Source: Thermoprotei archaeon (GTDB lineage Archaea > Thermoproteota > Thermoprotei > Thermoproteales > B15-G16). From it: a stretch of DNA of 22,571 nucleotides. A program made the position numbers and the translations under genes. Shown piece after piece: positions 1 through 22,571 of this stretch. Each line of letters begins with the position of its first letter. Position 1 is the first letter of the stretch. The stretch lies in contig QMRC01000017.1 of the NCBI GenBank assembly GCA_003649205.1, positions 1 through 22,571 of the forward strand, given 5' to 3'. The notes below the pieces were generated by a model. That model was given only the letters and a program-made list of their open reading frames with translations. It made no database searches and was not told the origin of the DNA.

Positions 1-123
1 GTTGATGAGGGAATTACTGTGGAGAAGAGGTTTAGGGGGCAAAGACACGAGAAACAAAAACAAAAACCCCTAAACCAAACACACACAAAAACAAACAAAA
101 CACAAAACAAAACAACAAAAACA
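1..123 (+). repeat. Left inverted terminal repeat (123 bp)
   Basis: 1-123 is the reverse complement of 22449-22571; identity stops at 124/22448. It includes an A/C-only tract (~51-123, apart from one T). Confidence 0.98.
29..76. promoter_or_regulatory. IR-N28 site 1 (GGTTTAGGGG-N28-CCCCTAAACC), left ITR
   Basis: Arms at 29-38 and 67-76, a perfect 10-bp inverted repeat with a 28-bp spacer. Confidence 0.85.
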
Positions 124-220
124 AAAAGAAATGAACAACAGTAACAACACGCACAAGTGCAAAAATGCAGGAACAAACATAGAAAACAGGAAACAAAGAA
201 AAATGAAAGTAAAAAATGAG

Positions 221-487
221 TTATTCTTCGTAGCTTTCTAGCTTTTCAATGTCTTCGAGCATGAATCTACAGAGGTCTTTGAAGTCCCTGCTCACTTTCT
301 CATACTGAATAATCTGATGCAACACAAACACTAGACTCGGCAACTTTGAGGAACGTAGATTGTTGAGCTTAATCATGAGTTCGCTTACAAGCTCTTTCTC
401 TCTGTCGTTCTTTGGTTGATAAAGTGCTAGCTTTGTCATGTACTTTGTTCTAAATTCATACAACTTCATTTCCTGACACCCACCCAT
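221..487 (-). CDS. Hypothetical helical protein (probable start at the ATG of MKLYEF, ~469)
   Basis: ORF coupled to the upstream 217-aa gene; the ATG overlaps its stop. Confidence 0.7.
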   Translation of the reverse strand: MGGCQEMKLYEFRTKYMTKLALYQPKNDREKELVSELMIKLNNLRSSKLPSLVFVLHQIIQYEKVSRDFKDLCRFMLEDIEKLESYEE

Positions 488-1119
488 GCATATTCCTTTA
501 GTACTTCAACAATTTCCTCGACGTTTACATCTATCTTGCTTGCATACCAACACTTCTCGGCTGGATTCCACCTAAATCCATGTCTCTTTAGTACATCTTT
601 CACATCATATGTCTTTCCAGTTACCTTGACTATGTCACCACAGTCATGAACAATAACTCTAGGTCTGTGATTATCACCATTATCCTTCAGAACAACCTTG
701 AGACCAAGCTTATCGTTAACATAGTACGTTACAGTAGCCTTTGATACGTACTTCACACCATTAATCTCTTGTTCCTTCTCAATAACTTCAGAAACAACTT
801 CACCTTCACCCTTTGTAACTCTAGGAGCATAGATATTCCTACTTGACTTGCTTTCCTCTATTACTGCAACAACAATTTCTTCAGGAACGTAAATGAACCT
901 GTGCGCATTTTTCCTGCTATCTCTGTTCTCTACTGTTATCTTGTAGGTCTTACCATCAATACTTATTGTCTTTACTAATTTCTGTCCTCTCTCCAGACCA
1001 GCAGTCTCCTTAAGTGGATCCAACACCTTACCATTTTTCAAAACCACAAATTCTCGTTTATATTGACCAAATGACCCCCAAGTTTTGTATTCTACCATTA
1101 TCTCGCCCACGTTTCTCAC
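466..1119 (-). CDS. Hypothetical protein with C-terminal DUF5710-like small domain
   Basis: 217 aa; C-terminal motif GKTYDVKDVLKRHGFRWNPAEKCWY resembles the KD.LK..G.RW.P..K.WY domain; GAGGTGA RBS-like motif at the 5' end and TTAAATA upstream. Confidence 0.7.
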   Translation of the reverse strand: MRNVGEIMVEYKTWGSFGQYKREFVVLKNGKVLDPLKETAGLERGQKLVKTISIDGKTYKITVENRDSRKNAHRFIYVPEEIVVAVIEESKSSRNIYAPRVTKGEGEVVSEVIEKEQEINGVKYVSKATVTYYVNDKLGLKVVLKDNGDNHRPRVIVHDCGDIVKVTGKTYDVKDVLKRHGFRWNPAEKCWYASKIDVNVEEIVEVLKEYAWVGVRK

Positions 1120-1146
1120 CTCTGTGAAATGTGTTGTTTTGTGTGA

Positions 1147-1153
1147 TATTTAA
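1147..1153 (-). promoter_or_regulatory. TATA box (TTAAATA) for the leftward terminal operon
   Basis: The same heptamer precedes several other transcription units (4496, 5861, 8758 minus strand, 9097). Confidence 0.55.
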
Positions 1154-1257
1154 AAGTTTCATTATGAGGTACCGTGTAGAGGTACCATACATCAAGTTCA
1201 TTGAGCTGAGCACATCACAACTAAACAACGAATCAAGAGAAGACTGCTAAATATTGC

Positions 1258-1569
1258 GTGGTGAGTAGCATACACTGTATGGAGTACGGAAGCTTGCTTA
1301 AGATGTTGATAAGGTACCTTGAGGATCAGAAGAGGAGTGCTAGGGGGAATGTGGTTACTGTGACGGTGAAGAAAGTGCGTTCATATGCTGGTTTCAGGAG
1401 ATTGAATCCGCAGATGATGGGTAGGGTCTTGGATTTCTACTTAACTCTGCTCGAAGTTCATGGTTACTGTCGTTCAGAGAGGAGAGCGAGACATAAGATC
1501 TACTACTTCAAGAAAGATGACTTAGATGATGCAATCTTGTACTTGAAGAGGTACTTAGGGGAGGGGTGA
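1258..1569 (+). CDS. Putative winged-helix DNA-binding protein
   Basis: Basic 103-aa ORF; helix-helix then LEVHGYCRSERRARHKIYYF wing-like hairpin. Confidence 0.55.
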   Translation: MVSSIHCMEYGSLLKMLIRYLEDQKRSARGNVVTVTVKKVRSYAGFRRLNPQMMGRVLDFYLTLLEVHGYCRSERRARHKIYYFKKDDLDDAILYLKRYLGEG

Positions 1570-20404: not shown

Positions 20405-21143
20405 CTTCTAACCTCTGTGGTCTTACTTTCAGTGATGATATAAATAATGCATCTGTATCGTGGTCATGGATAGCCTTCGTCACAGTGCGTATATACGGCA
20501 TGTCGTGTCTCGGCTTAATCTCACCAGCAGGTTCATCCCTCACAAGCTTCATACCGTGGTCGCTCACAATAATGAAGTCAGTAGCTAACTCCACTAGCTG
20601 TCTAATCACTTCGTCCATCTCATGTAGCAACCTGTATAGCGACATATTCGGTCTATTGATGTGTAAATACCTATCAACCCACGTGAAACAACAAATCACG
20701 TCTCTATCTTGCTCAAGGTACTTCCTAGCACAGAACCTAACAGTATTGATCTCCCTCCAAGCCTCAAAGAAGGTGTACGGTAGACCATATGCAACAGGAC
20801 GGAAATCAGGTACATTGCTTACCGGTGGAAGAACAACAGGAACATTGATGTATATGATTTGCGGGAAGTAGTCCCAAATCCACTTCACTGGAATTTCGTC
20901 ATACCTAATCAACCTCCACTGATCATCTCTCACCCTCTTTATGTAGAGGTTGTACCACTGAACATCAACACCAGCGAAAATACGAGTCCAACATCTCGGA
21001 GATATGGCAACCTTAACATCGATCATATGTATACCATACTCAACAGCAAGCCTAGCTAGATTCGGCATGTAGTTCTTGAACATAGATGTGAAGTACTTGT
21101 ACCCAAGACCATCAATACCTATGATCACGATTCTCCTATCCAT
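20358..21143 (-). CDS. Alkaline-phosphatase superfamily (nucleotide pyrophosphatase/phosphodiesterase-like) protein
   Basis: IVIIGIDG, ISPRCWTRIFAG (Ser nucleophile), DRYLH, SDHG and a distal HDH. Confidence 0.85.
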   Translation of the reverse strand: MDRRIVIIGIDGLGYKYFTSMFKNYMPNLARLAVEYGIHMIDVKVAISPRCWTRIFAGVDVQWYNLYIKRVRDDQWRLIRYDEIPVKWIWDYFPQIIYINVPVVLPPVSNVPDFRPVAYGLPYTFFEAWREINTVRFCARKYLEQDRDVICCFTWVDRYLHINRPNMSLYRLLHEMDEVIRQLVELATDFIIVSDHGMKLVRDEPAGEIKPRHDMPYIRTVTKAIHDHDTDALFISSLKVRPQRLEDVFTIMLNYFKTKYH

Positions 21144-21145
21144 AC

Positions 21146-21757
21146 CTACATCACCCTCTCAAACACGAGAAACTCGTCGAAGAACATACTAAATTCCCTT
21201 TCCCCAATTGTTGCATATTCCTCAAAGAGATCATCACTGTGTCTAAAACCAAGTTGCTCAATCTTCGTTATCCAGTACATGTGAGGGTGAATATTTACAT
21301 GAGTACAATCTCTATCGCAGTCATCTCTCCAGAAAGGTGTCCTAATCAGCAGAAACCTAGCAGAAACCCTAGCAAGTTCACGCAACAATAAATCCTCAAA
21401 CTCAGCAGGAATGTGCTCAACTAACTCACTAGCAATCACTAGGTAGAATGACCTTGACCTAAATGGTATGAACCTAGCATCAGCTTGAATGAAGAAAGTC
21501 AACCCTTCAGCAATAGCCCGTCTCTTACAGTAGTCACTGATGTCGAAACCATGAGCATCAACACCTCTCTTACGAAGCTCATCAACTAGGTACGGAACAG
21601 CACAACCACAATCAAGCACAGACTTCCCCCTCAAGTCAAAGACCCTCACCAGAGCATCAGCTACCTTCGGAAACCTGTGATCACGGAGATAGTCGTTGTA
21701 GTTAGCTAGCCCACCCTTGAAGTACTGCTCACCAAATATTTTTCTAGGATTAAACAC
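21146..21757 (-). CDS. Class I SAM-dependent methyltransferase
   Basis: VLDCGCA, GFDIS, QADARFIPF, ELVEHI, LRELARVS. Confidence 0.9.
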   Translation of the reverse strand: MFNPRKIFGEQYFKGGLANYNDYLRDHRFPKVADALVRVFDLRGKSVLDCGCAVPYLVDELRKRGVDAHGFDISDYCKRRAIAEGLTFFIQADARFIPFRSRSFYLVIASELVEHIPAEFEDLLLRELARVSARFLLIRTPFWRDDCDRDCTHVNIHPHMYWITKIEQLGFRHSDDLFEEYATIGEREFSMFFDEFLVFERVM

Positions 21758-21775
21758 AGTAACACCAGAGAGACT

Positions 21776-22447
21776 ATGTCACTATCAGATAAATTAAGCG
21801 AACTCGACAACATCATAGCGAAACTACGCTACGTAAAAAGAGGAGACTGGGTACTAAGCTCAGACCACAACGACTTAGTTGATGCAGTGAAGAAAATACG
21901 AGAAGCACTAGGACTAATCACAGGAGCAGAAGAACCAAACTACAGTAACTATACGAGGATTGCACTGAAGTCAATCGACATCAGTGTTAAGATATCGCTT
22001 GCCAGTGTACGTGGGGTCATTGGTTTCATATCGAGGAATGAAGCACTTATTGTTTATGCTTCTCTAACAGATACAGGTGGTGCTAGTTACGCTAAACCAG
22101 TCATCTTATCTATACCTGATCTATCCATCATATCTACCTATCCCGAAGCAGGTGAATCTTTTACTTACTACCTCATTCAACTCACAGCTACAACATCATT
22201 TTGCAGTGAGTTAACGAAGAAGTACTACATCATTGATACGTACACTGGAGACCGACGTGTAATCGACGTGTGGAGAGGTAAGACAAAGGTAGCATCGATT
22301 GATGCCCGTGACGTACCTACAGACGTACCAGATTCATCATACCCCTGCATATCGCATGATGGTAGGTACATTGCAGTGCTAGGTATACAGTACATAGACA
22401 GCTCCACATTTAGGCTAAACATCGCACTATACGAAGGACAAACCTAG
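21776..22447 (+). CDS. Putative second fibre/adhesin-like protein
   Basis: N-terminal VKRGDWVLSSDHNDLVDAV anchor-like motif, then a beta-rich region (ISHDGRYIAV, propeller-like). Confidence 0.6.
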   Translation: MSLSDKLSELDNIIAKLRYVKRGDWVLSSDHNDLVDAVKKIREALGLITGAEEPNYSNYTRIALKSIDISVKISLASVRGVIGFISRNEALIVYASLTDTGGASYAKPVILSIPDLSIISTYPEAGESFTYYLIQLTATTSFCSELTKKYYIIDTYTGDRRVIDVWRGKTKVASIDARDVPTDVPDSSYPCISHDGRYIAVLGIQYIDSSTFRLNIALYEGQT

Positions 22448-22448
22448 C

Positions 22449-22571
22449 TGTTTTTGTTGTTTTGTTTTGTGTTTTGTTTGTTTTTGTGTGTGTTTGGTTT
22501 AGGGGTTTTTGTTTTTGTTTCTCGTGTCTTTGCCCCCTAAACCTCTTCTCCACAGTAATTCCCTCATCAAC
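22449..22571 (-). repeat. Right inverted terminal repeat (123 bp)
   Basis: Reverse complement of 1-123; starts 1 bp after the stop codon of the last ORF. Confidence 0.98.
22496..22543. promoter_or_regulatory. IR-N28 site 5, right ITR
   Basis: GGTTTAGGGG 22496-22505 and CCCCTAAACC 22534-22543. Confidence 0.85.

What the first reader, a model, noticed from the sequence alone, without database searches (positions are those of the whole stretch)
29..22543. Fixed-geometry site GGTTTAGGGG-N28-CCCCTAAACC at both termini and three internal loci
Seen: 10-bp inverted arms with an exactly 28-bp variable spacer occur at 29-76, 2491-2538, 8742-8789, 13099-13146 and 22496-22543. The three internal copies share AATACCCCCTAAACC and lie outside or upstream of likely genes. 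Conserved arms and spacing with a free spacer point to a site for an oligomeric protein or a cruciform. Inference: one viral protein recognises both genome ends and internal control points, linking replication, end-resolution or packaging to transcription. Alternatively these are recombination/inversion sites.
Basis: partly seen in the sequence, partly recalled or inferred. Interest (0 to 1): 0.85.

Follow-up and report, generated by a model that had tools for sequence, protein, structure and literature searches.

The report
Repeated operator sites in archaeal virus
A 48-base palindromic site found at four places in a rod-shaped archaeal virus genome is most likely the docking site of a previously undescribed virus-encoded gene regulator that controls its own gene and the virion-fibre genes, rather than a signal at the genome ends.

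Summary
The motif is real and far from chance, but it needs correction. Only 3 of the 5 copies are exact. The two "terminal" copies are one inverted terminal repeat (ITR), so there are 4 independent sites. The contig ends are not the physical ends: three unrelated contigs all carry a terminal repeat of exactly 123 nt, and a close relative runs 330 nt further out to a hairpin-like palindrome.

The window is a rudivirus-like genome targeted by CRISPR spacers of its own MAG. The internal sites lie in promoter regions. One flanks the TATA box of gene 8220-8723(-). The others lie 10-24 nt upstream of TTAAAA boxes, including the promoter of the fibre operon.

Gene 8220-8723 encodes a helix / three-stranded beta-sheet / helix protein of an uncharacterised family (weak DUF6788 and Arm-type similarity), predicted to form an antiparallel homodimer. 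At 9 of 10 viral or mobile-element loci with a homologue, the gene is preceded by an element-specific TTAG...CTAA inverted repeat. The spacing is 27-30 or 38-40 bp and often recurs at fixed geometry.

Best reading (about 0.6): these are the operators of this autoregulated regulator, with SvtR-like logic and a new fold. The role of the ITR copy is open, and no binding was shown.

The parts
29..76 (.). Site A, left ITR copy: GGTTTAGGGG-N28-CCCCTAAACC, exact. It lies in the inner part of a longer ITR, not at the physical end.
   Evidence: conserved in L017, L019 and L020 with spacer substitutions; 308 nt from the palindrome axis in L019
22496..22543 (.). Site A', right ITR copy. Same repeat as 29-76, so not independent.
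2491..2538 (.). Site B: exact arms (12-nt perfect arms across 2490-2539). The proximal arm is 24 nt upstream of the TTAAAA box (2466-2461, minus strand) of gene 2162-2431(-).
   Evidence: arms invariant within a 58-column conserved island, with diverged flanks, in L019 and L020
8742..8789 (.). Site C: left arm has 1 mismatch. It flanks the TATA-like TTAAATA (8764-8758, minus strand) of the regulator gene, whose ATG (8723) is 18 nt from the arm. Its right arm is 10 nt upstream of TTAAAAA (8800-8806) of gene 8831-9100(+).
13099..13146 (.). Site D: left arm has 2 mismatches, right arm is exact. It lies 24 nt upstream of TTAAAA (13171-13176) of the operon 13203-13493 / 13490-16753 (96-aa protein plus 1087-aa fibre-like protein).
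8220..8723 (-). Candidate cognate regulator (P0002, 167 aa): helix 3-45, three beta-strands 56-95, helix 100-153. It belongs to an uncharacterised family with weak DUF6788 / Arm-type DNA-binding similarity and is predicted to form an antiparallel homodimer.
2162..2431 (-). 89-aa gene of unknown function, whose promoter lies next to site B.
   Evidence: homologue in L019 at the same 60-nt offset from the site
8831..9100 (+). 89-aa predicted membrane protein, transcribed divergently from the regulator gene and downstream of site C.
   Evidence: two hydrophobic stretches seen by eye
13203..16753 (+). Structural operon (96-aa gene plus 1087-aa fibre-like gene) downstream of site D. It is orthologous to L011 10999-6213(-), which has its own palindrome in the same intergenic region.
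1..123 (.). Inner 123 nt of the ITR (paired with 22449-22571). The exact length of 123 is probably an assembler k-mer limit.
   Evidence: 3 of 3 contigs have exactly 123; the assembler setting is recalled, not tested

Best explanation
The 48-bp sites are the operators of a virus-encoded transcription regulator, the product of gene 8220-8723(-). The protein is inferred to be an antiparallel coiled-coil homodimer. It would carry one small three-stranded beta-sheet DNA-binding domain at each end, and each domain would read one 10-11-bp arm (core TTAGG) about 38 bp from the other. At its own promoter the two arms bracket the TATA box, so binding should block TBP/TFB or RNA polymerase, giving autorepression. 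At three other promoters the whole site lies 10-24 nt upstream of a TTAAAA box: gene 2162-2431, gene 8831-9100, and the 96-aa plus fibre-protein operon. There it could recruit or hinder the pre-initiation complex and so time the expression of virion genes. The same protein probably also binds the copy in each ITR, for an unknown purpose. What is shown: sequence, geometry, positions, conservation, and the association of this gene family with such palindromes. What is inferred: DNA binding, dimer geometry, and the direction of regulation.
For: 1. The sites are non-random and specific to the virus.
2. In close relatives at about 87-90% nucleotide identity (L017, L019, L020), the arms of sites A and B are invariant. 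The spacers carry substitutions at unchanged length, and the flanks of site B diverge strongly. In one search, contigs of runs X2, X4 and X5 align 2491-2553 as an island between alignment breaks. This is weak evidence because it was obtained at 80% likeness.
3. Promoter geometry: the TATA of the regulator gene lies inside the spacer of site C, with the ATG 18 nt from the arm. The arm-to-TTAAAA gap is 24 nt at both B and D, and 10 nt at C(+).
4. The distant relative L011 (major capsid protein (MCP) 88% aa identity, DNA mostly unalignable) has no CCCCTAAACC. It has its own palindrome, TTTAGTGTC-N15-GACACTAAA, at two places. One is 17 nt upstream of its P0002 homologue (hmmsearch E=6.8e-10, next best ORF 0.016), with TATAAA in the spacer. 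The other is in the orthologous intergenic region upstream of the 96-aa plus fibre operon, about 25 nt from its TATA.
5. A third rudivirus-like contig, G002, has a homologue preceded by AGGTGTTAGGG-N32-CCCTAACACCT with TATATAT in the spacer.
6. Of the 10 loci examined with long-form homologues outside family f30, 9 have an inverted repeat with perfect arms of at least 9 nt and a TTAG...CTAA core, upstream of or overlapping the start. These are the window, L011, G002/L071, L075, L090, L091, L094, L095 and L097; L076 has none. Background is 46 such repeats in 94,192 nt, operators included. Several elements repeat their site at fixed geometry: L075 three times, and L090, L094 and L095 twice each.
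7. TTAG-to-CTAA offsets fall in two classes, 27-30 bp and 38-40 bp. L075 and L090 share the window's exact 48-bp span.
8. Protein: model pLDDT 85.7, helix / three strands / helix. Of 15 family members, 4 hit Pfam DUF6788 (best 7.7e-06) and 3 hit Arm-DNA-bind_3 (best 0.0038).
9. Homodimer prediction: score 0.72 against a best control of 0.01. That mark was reached by 20 of 30 proteins solved as pairs of one chain and by 1 of 23 solved as single chains. The runs agree in at least 70% of contacts and the partner pLDDT is at least 82. Contacts 142-142, 138-146 and 134-149 indicate an antiparallel arrangement. My own alignment was used, so these calibration counts hold only roughly.
Against: - No binding experiment or expression data exist.
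- P0002 itself hits no Pfam DNA-binding family at E<=0.1. Foldseek against the PDB gave nothing at E<=0.001, and the best rows are helical-hairpin proteins such as V-ATPase subunit D and prefoldin. The protein-atlas hits to DUF6788 score 0.82-0.84, which is lead-level only.
- Conservation of sites C and D in close relatives could not be examined.
- The ITR copy is not next to any recognisable promoter, and L011 has no counterpart in the ITR part that is available.
- Short chromosomal homologues in family f30 (13 loci examined) have no such palindromes. One long-form locus (L076) has none either.
- TATA boxes and transcription starts are assigned by eye from sequence.
- Two RHH proteins encoded at 5895-6284 are alternative binders.
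- Protein length does not track the two spacing classes.
Confidence: 0.6

Rival explanations
1. The sites are operators, but for a different protein. Candidates are one of the two tandem RHH proteins (5895-6113, 6117-6284), another small viral protein, or a host factor. On this view, the position of site C next to 8220-8723 only means that this gene is one of the targets.
For: RHH proteins are the classical archaeal-virus regulators (passages of PMC5569661), and two are encoded here. P0002 has no direct Pfam DNA-binding hit.
Against: The palindrome travels with the P0002-family gene at 9 of 10 loci across unrelated elements, and its sequence changes with the element. RHH dimers usually read short, closely spaced repeats, not arms 38 bp apart (general knowledge). 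The site is absent from the rest of the host assembly, which argues against a host regulon.
Confidence: 0.15
2. The primary function is in replication, end processing or packaging. The ITR copy would be the key site (initiator or resolvase loading, or end pairing), and the internal copies would be secondary sites or couple replication to transcription.
For: One copy lies in each ITR and is conserved in three close relatives. G002 also has a 10-bp/N28 palindrome at a similar place in its ITR. Chromosomal homologues of the candidate binder lie directly downstream of orc1/cdc6 in family f30, where 15 of 15 genomes have a homologue. The orc1/cdc6 adjacency itself was checked by Pfam at one locus.
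Against: The site is about 308 nt from the symmetry axis in L019. L011 has no ITR counterpart in the part available. The arms of G002's ITR palindrome differ from its operator and do not recur as palindromes inside that genome. All three internal sites sit at promoters, with conserved arm-to-TATA distances. No Rep/HUH, integrase or resolvase family was found among 40 ORFs scanned by Pfam.
Confidence: 0.12
3. The sites are crossover sites for site-specific recombination or inversion.
For: They are inverted repeats with fixed spacing at several loci. Relatives differ by insertions and deletions between sites A and B.
Against: No recombinase was detected. The variable segment (window 131-1608) is not bounded by the sites. 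None of the 15 joints shown connects two sites, though 19 further joints were not shown. The three internal copies share one orientation, which would give deletions rather than inversions.
Confidence: 0.04
4. The sites act as structures: cruciforms or ssDNA hairpins in DNA, or stem-loops in RNA serving as terminators or processing signals.
For: As ssDNA the arms pair, at -8.2 to -16.5 kcal/mol at 37 C with z-scores of -2.7 to -5.3.
Against: A 10-bp stem closing a 22-28-nt loop is marginal at hyperthermophilic temperatures and poor for cruciform extrusion (general knowledge). Two of the four sites have mismatched arms with no compensating change. There is no Rfam match. Sites B, C and D lie upstream of genes, not at their ends.
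Confidence: 0.04

Closest known systems
[quoted passage not shown]
   Same: A rudivirus regulator that represses its own promoter and binds three other sites in the genome. Its highest affinity is for the promoter of the large tail-fibre structural gene gp30, at a site upstream of TATA/BRE (passages of PMC5569661). The window has the same layout: a site at the candidate's own promoter, three other sites, and one of them upstream of the fibre operon.
   Different: SvtR is a 6.6-kDa RHH dimer with an imperfect inverted-repeat site, thought to spread along the DNA. The candidate here is a 167-aa helix / beta-sheet / helix protein with two discrete arms 38 bp apart. The window's RHH genes lie elsewhere. 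One site here is in the ITR.
Arm-type (N-terminal) DNA-binding domains of tyrosine integrases, the AP2-like three-stranded sheet domains, and Pfam DUF6788
   Same: A small three-stranded beta-sheet with a Y/W-rich motif followed by GK...YLG. Of 15 family members, 4 hit DUF6788 and 3 hit Arm-DNA-bind_3. One such domain reads roughly one 10-bp site (recalled).
   Different: There is no integrase catalytic domain. The sheet is inserted at the tip of a long helical hairpin that is predicted to dimerise antiparallel. P0002 itself is below Pfam thresholds.
Archaeal repressors and activators that act by position relative to TATA/BRE (for example LrpA-, Phr- or MDR1-type repressors and Ptr2-type activators; recalled, not read here)
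   Same: Binding over or just downstream of TATA blocks assembly of the pre-initiation complex. Binding just upstream of BRE/TATA can recruit TBP/TFB.
   Different: Those proteins have HTH or Lrp folds with compact sites. Here two half-sites lie 3.6 helical turns apart and bracket the TATA box.
Conserved terminal sequence motif and Rep nick site of cultured rudiviruses (recalled from the literature; my search for the motif returned only an unrelated paper)
   Same: A TTTAGG-containing sequence in the ITRs of rod-shaped archaeal viruses.
   Different: The known motif is a tandem direct repeat close to the physical ends. The sites here are spaced inverted repeats about 300 nt from the end, and they recur at internal promoters.

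Membership tests
Rudivirus-like (Adnaviria) rod-shaped archaeal virus | SIRV2-type major capsid protein | tested here: met
   10025-10393 hits Pfam Sulf_coat_C at E=4e-09, 37.1 bits against a cutoff of 25.2.
Rudivirus-like (Adnaviria) rod-shaped archaeal virus | Linear dsDNA genome with inverted terminal repeats and closed hairpin ends | tested here: inconclusive
   A perfect 123-nt ITR is present, but its length looks assembler-limited. The relative L019 ends in a 90-nt perfect palindrome, which fits a hairpin end or a head-to-head replicative junction. The physical ends of this genome were not observed.
Rudivirus-like (Adnaviria) rod-shaped archaeal virus | Similarity to cultured members | tested here: not met
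   tblastn of the capsid protein, and megablast of the genome, against the 'phages' collection gave no match. That collection may hold few archaeal viruses.
DUF6788 / Arm-type DNA-binding domain | Pfam model hit above threshold | tested here: inconclusive
   P0002 has none at E<=0.1. Of 15 relatives, 4 hit DUF6788 (best 7.7e-06), 3 hit Arm-DNA-bind_3 (best 0.0038) and 3 hit Arm-DNA-bind_5 (best 0.029). Protein-atlas feature hits to DUF6788 score 0.82-0.84, which is a lead only.
DUF6788 / Arm-type DNA-binding domain | Three-stranded antiparallel beta-sheet | tested here: met
   The model has strands 56-62, 72-83 and 86-95, with pLDDT 77-94 in that part. This is a prediction only.
DUF6788 / Arm-type DNA-binding domain | Sequence-specific DNA binding | not testable with these tools
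   Inferred only from the association with palindromes.
SvtR-type viral regulon | RHH fold of the regulator | tested here: not met
   P0002 is helix / sheet / helix. The RHH genes are at 5895-6284, not next to any site.
SvtR-type viral regulon | A site at the regulator's own promoter and at the fibre-gene promoter | tested here: met
   By position only: site C lies 18 nt from the ATG of 8220-8723, and site D lies upstream of 13203-16753. The same holds in L011.
Terminal resolution / Rep nick site | Located at or within a few tens of nt of the physical terminus | tested here: not met
   It is 308 nt from the palindrome axis in L019.
Terminal resolution / Rep nick site | A cognate Rep/HUH or resolvase gene | tested here: inconclusive
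   No such Pfam family was found among 40 ORFs scanned at E<=0.01-0.05. Several ORFs gave no hit at all.
Site-specific recombination site | A recombinase gene and rearrangement junctions at the sites | tested here: not met
   No recombinase was found. None of the 15 joints listed joins two sites, and 19 further joints were not shown.

The most novel reading that the evidence does not exclude
The 8220-8723 family would be a new class of archaeal virus and mobile-element DNA-binding protein that acts as a molecular ruler. An antiparallel coiled coil would hold two Arm-like beta-sheet domains at a set distance, so that operators come in two spacing classes one helical turn apart (27-30 or 38-40 bp between TTAG cores). 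In this virus the same protein would also bind both ITRs, physically coupling the genome ends (replication or end protection) to the promoters of late genes. Its short chromosomal paralogue, encoded directly after orc1/cdc6 in one whole host family, would be an origin-associated factor.
Probability: 0.15. Interest if true: 0.75.

Novelty: new variant of a known kind. Interest (0 to 1): 0.5.

Why it matters
Few transcription regulators of archaeal viruses are known. The 2017 review passages I read (PMC5569661) list RHH, AbrB-like and zinc-finger proteins and none of this architecture. A full-text search for DUF6788 found 0 papers.

If the reading is right, a so-far uncharacterised family gains a function, a recognisable operator grammar (TTAGG cores, two spacing classes, TATA bracketed at the family's own promoter) and a small regulon that can be tested directly. 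The family occurs in marine rudivirus-like viruses, in other elements of Thermoproteota, and as a paralogue next to orc1/cdc6 in one host family.

The work also corrects a likely misreading: 123-nt "ITRs" in such metagenomic contigs are probably assembler-limited, so motifs "at the termini" need not lie at the real ends.

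Tried and rejected
- IMG/VR scan for the full motif with N20-36: 1 stretch, a G/C-rich unrelated sequence.
- IMG/VR scan for the 15-mer: 49 stretches. None of the 49 is related to the window by blastn, and none has a left arm within 4 mismatches. These are chance hits.
- Metagenome scan: 6 stretches, of which 3 (L015, L016, L018) are unrelated.
- Genome-contig scan with the capsid protein: only a 33%/42-aa match in a Bdellovibrionales MAG, rejected as unrelated.
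- PHROGs on 10 ORFs gave nothing useful.
- Foldseek against the PDB gave no match at E<=0.001.
- The profile search of PDB sequences returned only coiled-coil noise, with best E 0.0072.
- tblastn of P0002, the capsid protein and the host paralogue against 'phages': no match.
- No RNA holder was listed by the look-up of sequencing runs, so nothing can be said about expression.
- Read laying shows only 40 of about 1190 differences. I therefore could not read whether sites C and D are conserved in runs X2, X4 and X5.
- Idea rejected for lack of support: that protein or N-helix length predicts the spacing class. Lengths of 127-167 aa do not sort with 27-30 versus 38-40 bp.
- A rough estimate from the contact list puts the dyad near residues 19 and 142, giving about 110-125 Å between the two sheet domains, against about 129 Å for 38 bp of straight B-DNA. 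This is my arithmetic, not taken from coordinates, and it is only a compatibility check.
- Short f30 paralogues: no TTAG palindromes within their roughly 3.3-kb loci.
- Loci that I did not examine for palindromes: L079 and L080 (the frame ran into the upstream orc1-like gene), L096 (cut at a contig end), and L098 and L099 (weak partial matches).
- I asked for no supplementary files. Supplements of the SvtR papers might hold exact operator coordinates that I did not see.

Full report
**Observation**

The pattern GGTTTAGGGG-N28-CCCCTAAACC occurs exactly at 29-76, 2491-2538 and 22496-22543, and none of 100 dinucleotide-preserving shuffles gave a match. The copies at 8742-8789 and 13099-13146 have 1 and 2 mismatches in the left arm, but their geometry is identical: the TTAG-to-CTAA offset is 38 in all five.

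Half-sites with at most 1 mismatch number 9, against 0.49 expected, and all of them lie in these loci. A relaxed 8+N30+8 pattern with up to 2 mismatches finds only these five places in the whole 2,066,741-base assembly, and the reversed control finds none. AATACCCCCTAAACC is exact at the three internal copies only.

The two "terminal" copies belong to one perfect inverted repeat, 1-123 against 22449-22571. That leaves four independent sites.

**What the window is**

It is the whole of contig C17 of a 31-contig, 2.07-Mb MAG. It encodes the following:
- a SIRV2-type capsid protein (Sulf_coat_C, E=4e-09);
- a GT4 glycosyltransferase;
- a 1087-aa fibre-like protein;
- a SAM methyltransferase;
- a Csx3-like protein;
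- two tandem RHH proteins.

It is therefore a rudivirus-like virus. Four regions of it match CRISPR spacers in three arrays of the same MAG, one of them at 100% over 43 nt, so the MAG is its host or a close relative of its host. Related contigs were laid from three further runs of three studies labelled as sediment or hydrothermal-vent metagenomes.

**The ends**

The window, the relative G001 (L011) and the more distant G002 all have perfect terminal inverted repeats of exactly 123 nt with unrelated sequences. An identical length with different sequence is what a de Bruijn assembler gives when a unique region runs into a longer collapsed repeat. I recall 123 as the largest k of a common MEGAHIT setting, but that is recollection, not a test.

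The direct evidence is this. The close relative L019 aligns to window 7-131 at its positions 331-455 and carries 330 further bases outside. Its first 90 nt are a perfect palindrome with its axis at 45/46, which is the signature of reading through a hairpin end or a head-to-head junction. The motif starts 308 nt from that axis. The ITR copy therefore lies in the inner ITR, not at the physical end.

**Context of the internal sites**

The sequence is read directly, and the TATA boxes are assigned by eye.

- Site C lies between the divergent genes 8220-8723(-) and 8831-9100(+). On the minus strand, TTAAATA (8764-8758) sits inside the spacer, and the ATG at 8723 is 18 nt from the arm. On the plus strand, TTAAAAA (8800-8806) starts 10 nt after the right arm and lies about 24 nt before the ATG at 8831.
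- Site B lies 24 nt upstream of TTAAAA (2466-2461, minus strand) of gene 2162-2431(-).
- Site D lies 24 nt upstream of TTAAAA (13171-13176) of the operon 13203-13493 plus 13490-16753.

In each case the arm nearest the promoter is the well-conserved AAT(A/G)CCCCCTAAACC.

**Close relatives**

A metagenome scan gave six stretches, three of them related to the window at about 87-90% identity (L017, L019, L020). In these the arms of sites A and B are invariant, and the spacers carry about 5-6 substitutions at an unchanged length of 28. In a three-way alignment, site B forms a conserved island (columns 92-149) within flanks that are only about half invariant. I could not retrieve the counterparts of sites C and D.

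**Distant relatives**

L011 (capsid protein 88% aa identity, DNA mostly unalignable) has no CCCCTAAACC even with one mismatch. It has its own palindrome, TTTAGTGTC-N15-GACACTAAA, at two places.

By protein synteny, one of these lies in the orthologous intergenic region upstream of the 96-aa plus fibre operon, about 25 nt from an ATAAAAA box. The other lies 17 nt upstream of ORF 16669-17082, with TATAAA in its spacer.

**The candidate binder**

Gene 8220-8723 encodes P0002 (167 aa). An exhaustive HMMER search of 1.84 billion representatives found 14 relatives at E<=0.001. They share the core GWIExKWVxNKxGKKYWYYYLRYxDxGKxRSxYLGKxIP.

- Domain similarity: P0002 has no Pfam hit. Of the 15 family members, 4 hit DUF6788 (best 7.7e-06) and 3 hit the Arm DNA-binding domain (best 0.0038).
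- Structure: with the alignment, AlphaFold gives pLDDT 85.7 and the order helix 3-45, strands 56-62, 72-83 and 86-95, then helix 100-153.
- Dimer: the two-copy prediction scored 0.72 against a best control of 0.01. That mark was reached by 20 of 30 proteins solved as pairs of one chain and by 1 of 23 solved as single chains. The runs agree in at least 70% of contacts and the partner pLDDT is at least 82. My own alignment was used, so these counts hold only roughly. The contacts 142-142, 138-146, 134-149 and 130-153 imply an antiparallel arrangement, with the sheet domains at opposite ends.
- The model supports pairing. It does not show it.

**Association of the family with palindromes**

A profile of the family matches L011 16669-17082 at E=6.8e-10, with the next best ORF at 0.016. 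This is the gene that sits behind L011's palindrome.

A third rudivirus-like contig, G002 (capsid protein 33%, glycosyltransferase and fibre homologues), has a homologue preceded by AGGTGTTAGGG-N32-CCCTAACACCT with TATATAT in the spacer.

Searching 401 genomes of the host phylum found homologues in 26. Seven long-form loci outside family f30 were examined:
- L075, L090, L091, L094, L095 and L097 have perfect inverted repeats of 9-14 nt with a GT(G/T)TTAG core just upstream of the gene. In L097 the repeat is 110 nt upstream.
- L076 has none.

With the window, L011 and G002, that makes 9 of 10 loci. The background is 46 such repeats in 94,192 nt, the operators themselves included.

Several elements repeat their own site at fixed geometry: L075 three times, and L090, L094 and L095 twice each.

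The TTAG-to-CTAA offsets fall in two classes:

| Offset | Sites |
|---|---|
| 27-30 bp | L011 ×2, L094 ×2, L091, L095, L097 |
| 38-40 bp | window ×4, L075 ×3, L090 ×2, G002 |

The two classes differ by about one helical turn.

**Mechanism**

I infer that the 8220-8723 protein is an antiparallel coiled-coil dimer whose two sheet domains each read one arm.

At its own promoter the arms bracket the TATA box. This geometry recurs at L011, G002, L091, L094, L097 and others, and predicts autorepression by occluding TBP/TFB or RNA polymerase (established logic for archaeal repressors, recalled).

At the promoters of 2162-2431, 8831-9100 and the fibre operon, the site lies wholly upstream of the TATA box at 24, 10 and 24 nt. 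The arm-to-TATA distance at the fibre operon is kept in L011 (about 25 nt) although the sequence is different. Whether this activates or represses cannot be told from sequence.

This mirrors the SvtR regulon of SIRV1: its own promoter plus three other sites, with the strongest at the tail-fibre gene gp30 (passages of PMC5569661). The protein architecture is unrelated.

**The ITR copy**

It has perfect arms and is conserved in three close relatives. However, I see no TTAAAA-type box 10-24 nt from either arm, in the window or in L019's outward sequence.
- L011 has no inverted repeat of 7 nt or more in its available inner ITR.
- G002 has a 10-bp/N28 palindrome at 47-94 of its ITR, but with arms unrelated to its operator, and these arms do not recur as internal palindromes.

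The function of the ITR copy is therefore open. The same protein may bind there for titration, end tethering or a replication link, or these viruses may have an ITR palindrome of separate function that here shares its arms.

**Rivals**

- Another binder, either RHH or host (0.15).
- A function primarily in replication or at the ends (0.12).
- Recombination sites (0.04).
- Hairpin, cruciform or RNA structure (0.04). There is no Rfam match, the ssDNA stems are modest with 22-28-nt loops, and the arm mismatches are uncompensated.

**Novelty and limits**

A viral autoregulator with a small regulon is a known kind of system. Three things appear new:
- the protein family, for which a full-text search for DUF6788 found 0 papers, and which is absent from the review's list of characterised archaeal-virus regulators (passages only, 2017);
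- the widely spaced two-arm operator with two spacing classes;
- the copy in the ITR.

All functional statements are inferences from sequence, position, comparison and prediction. No binding, expression or end-mapping data exist. Three resources were unavailable: the search of earlier findings, the look-up of encoding contigs and the pdb_via_wide library.

Noticed in passing
window 1-123 and 22449-22571; L011 ends; G002 ends: Three contigs from different records all have perfect terminal inverted repeats of exactly 123 nt with unrelated sequences. This is probably an assembler k-mer limit marking the inner edge of longer ITRs, so IMG/VR-style 'ITR' calls for such contigs understate ITR length.
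   Followed up: partly
L019 1-90: A perfect 90-nt palindrome (axis at 45/46) at the contig start. It fits read-through of a covalently closed hairpin end or a head-to-head replicative junction. Several short direct repeats lie between it and the motif.
   Followed up: partly
window 7555-7974 (+): A virus-encoded Csx3-like protein (Pfam Cas_csx3, E=1.8e-17). It is a candidate ring nuclease or anti-CRISPR in a virus whose host MAG carries spacers against it.
   Followed up: no
G000 C11:43481-43523, C1:271471-271520, C4:116746-116865 versus window 9063-9105, 4899-4948, 17625-17671, 16295-16346: CRISPR arrays of two repeat types in the same MAG carry spacers that match the virus at 100% over 43 nt, 96%, 95.7% and 88.5%. 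This links virus and host.
   Followed up: partly
window 4255-4455, 12850-13050, 19850-20055: A roughly 180-nt non-coding element present three times at 69-76% pairwise identity. It has an invariant CCCCTCAAGACAAA core and a terminal ACCCCC...GGGGG inverted repeat. One copy lies just upstream of site D. Contigs of runs X4 and X5 join 13024 to 4449, which suggests recombination between copies.
   Followed up: partly
window 2705-2724 and 2757-2776: An exact 20-nt direct repeat (TCATAAACCAGTTATTTTAA), 52 nt apart, in the 375-nt ORF-free stretch between site B and gene 2914-3507. It could be tandem promoters or another binding site.
   Followed up: no
L084 101-1261 and 1294-1629; family f30: A short (about 110 aa) chromosomal paralogue of the candidate regulator is present in 15 of 15 genomes of one host family. 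At the locus checked by Pfam it lies 32 nt downstream of an orc1/cdc6 gene, and in L079 and L080 it follows an ORF with an AAA+ Walker motif. There are no TTAG palindromes nearby.
   Followed up: partly
G002 47-94 and 29968-30015; G002 27863-27978: G002's ITR holds its own 10-bp/N28 palindrome (TAAGCCTTTT arms). Two interleaved long inverted repeats, one with TTTAGAGGGGCTAG arms and N40, lie in a divergent intergenic region near its regulator gene.
   Followed up: partly
window 5895-6113 and 6117-6284 (+): Two adjacent RHH (CopG-type) genes. L011 has a 189-aa protein that matches both.
   Followed up: no
window 7480-7535: Another perfect 10-bp inverted repeat (ACCCCGAGGG, N36), just upstream of or overlapping the start of the Csx3-like gene.
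   Followed up: no
window 131-1608 versus L019 455-960 and L020 3932-4736: The segment next to the left ITR is replaced in close relatives by a shorter cassette encoding a zinc-ribbon protein and flanked by a repeated 28-nt sequence. This is a variable region next to the ITR.
   Followed up: no
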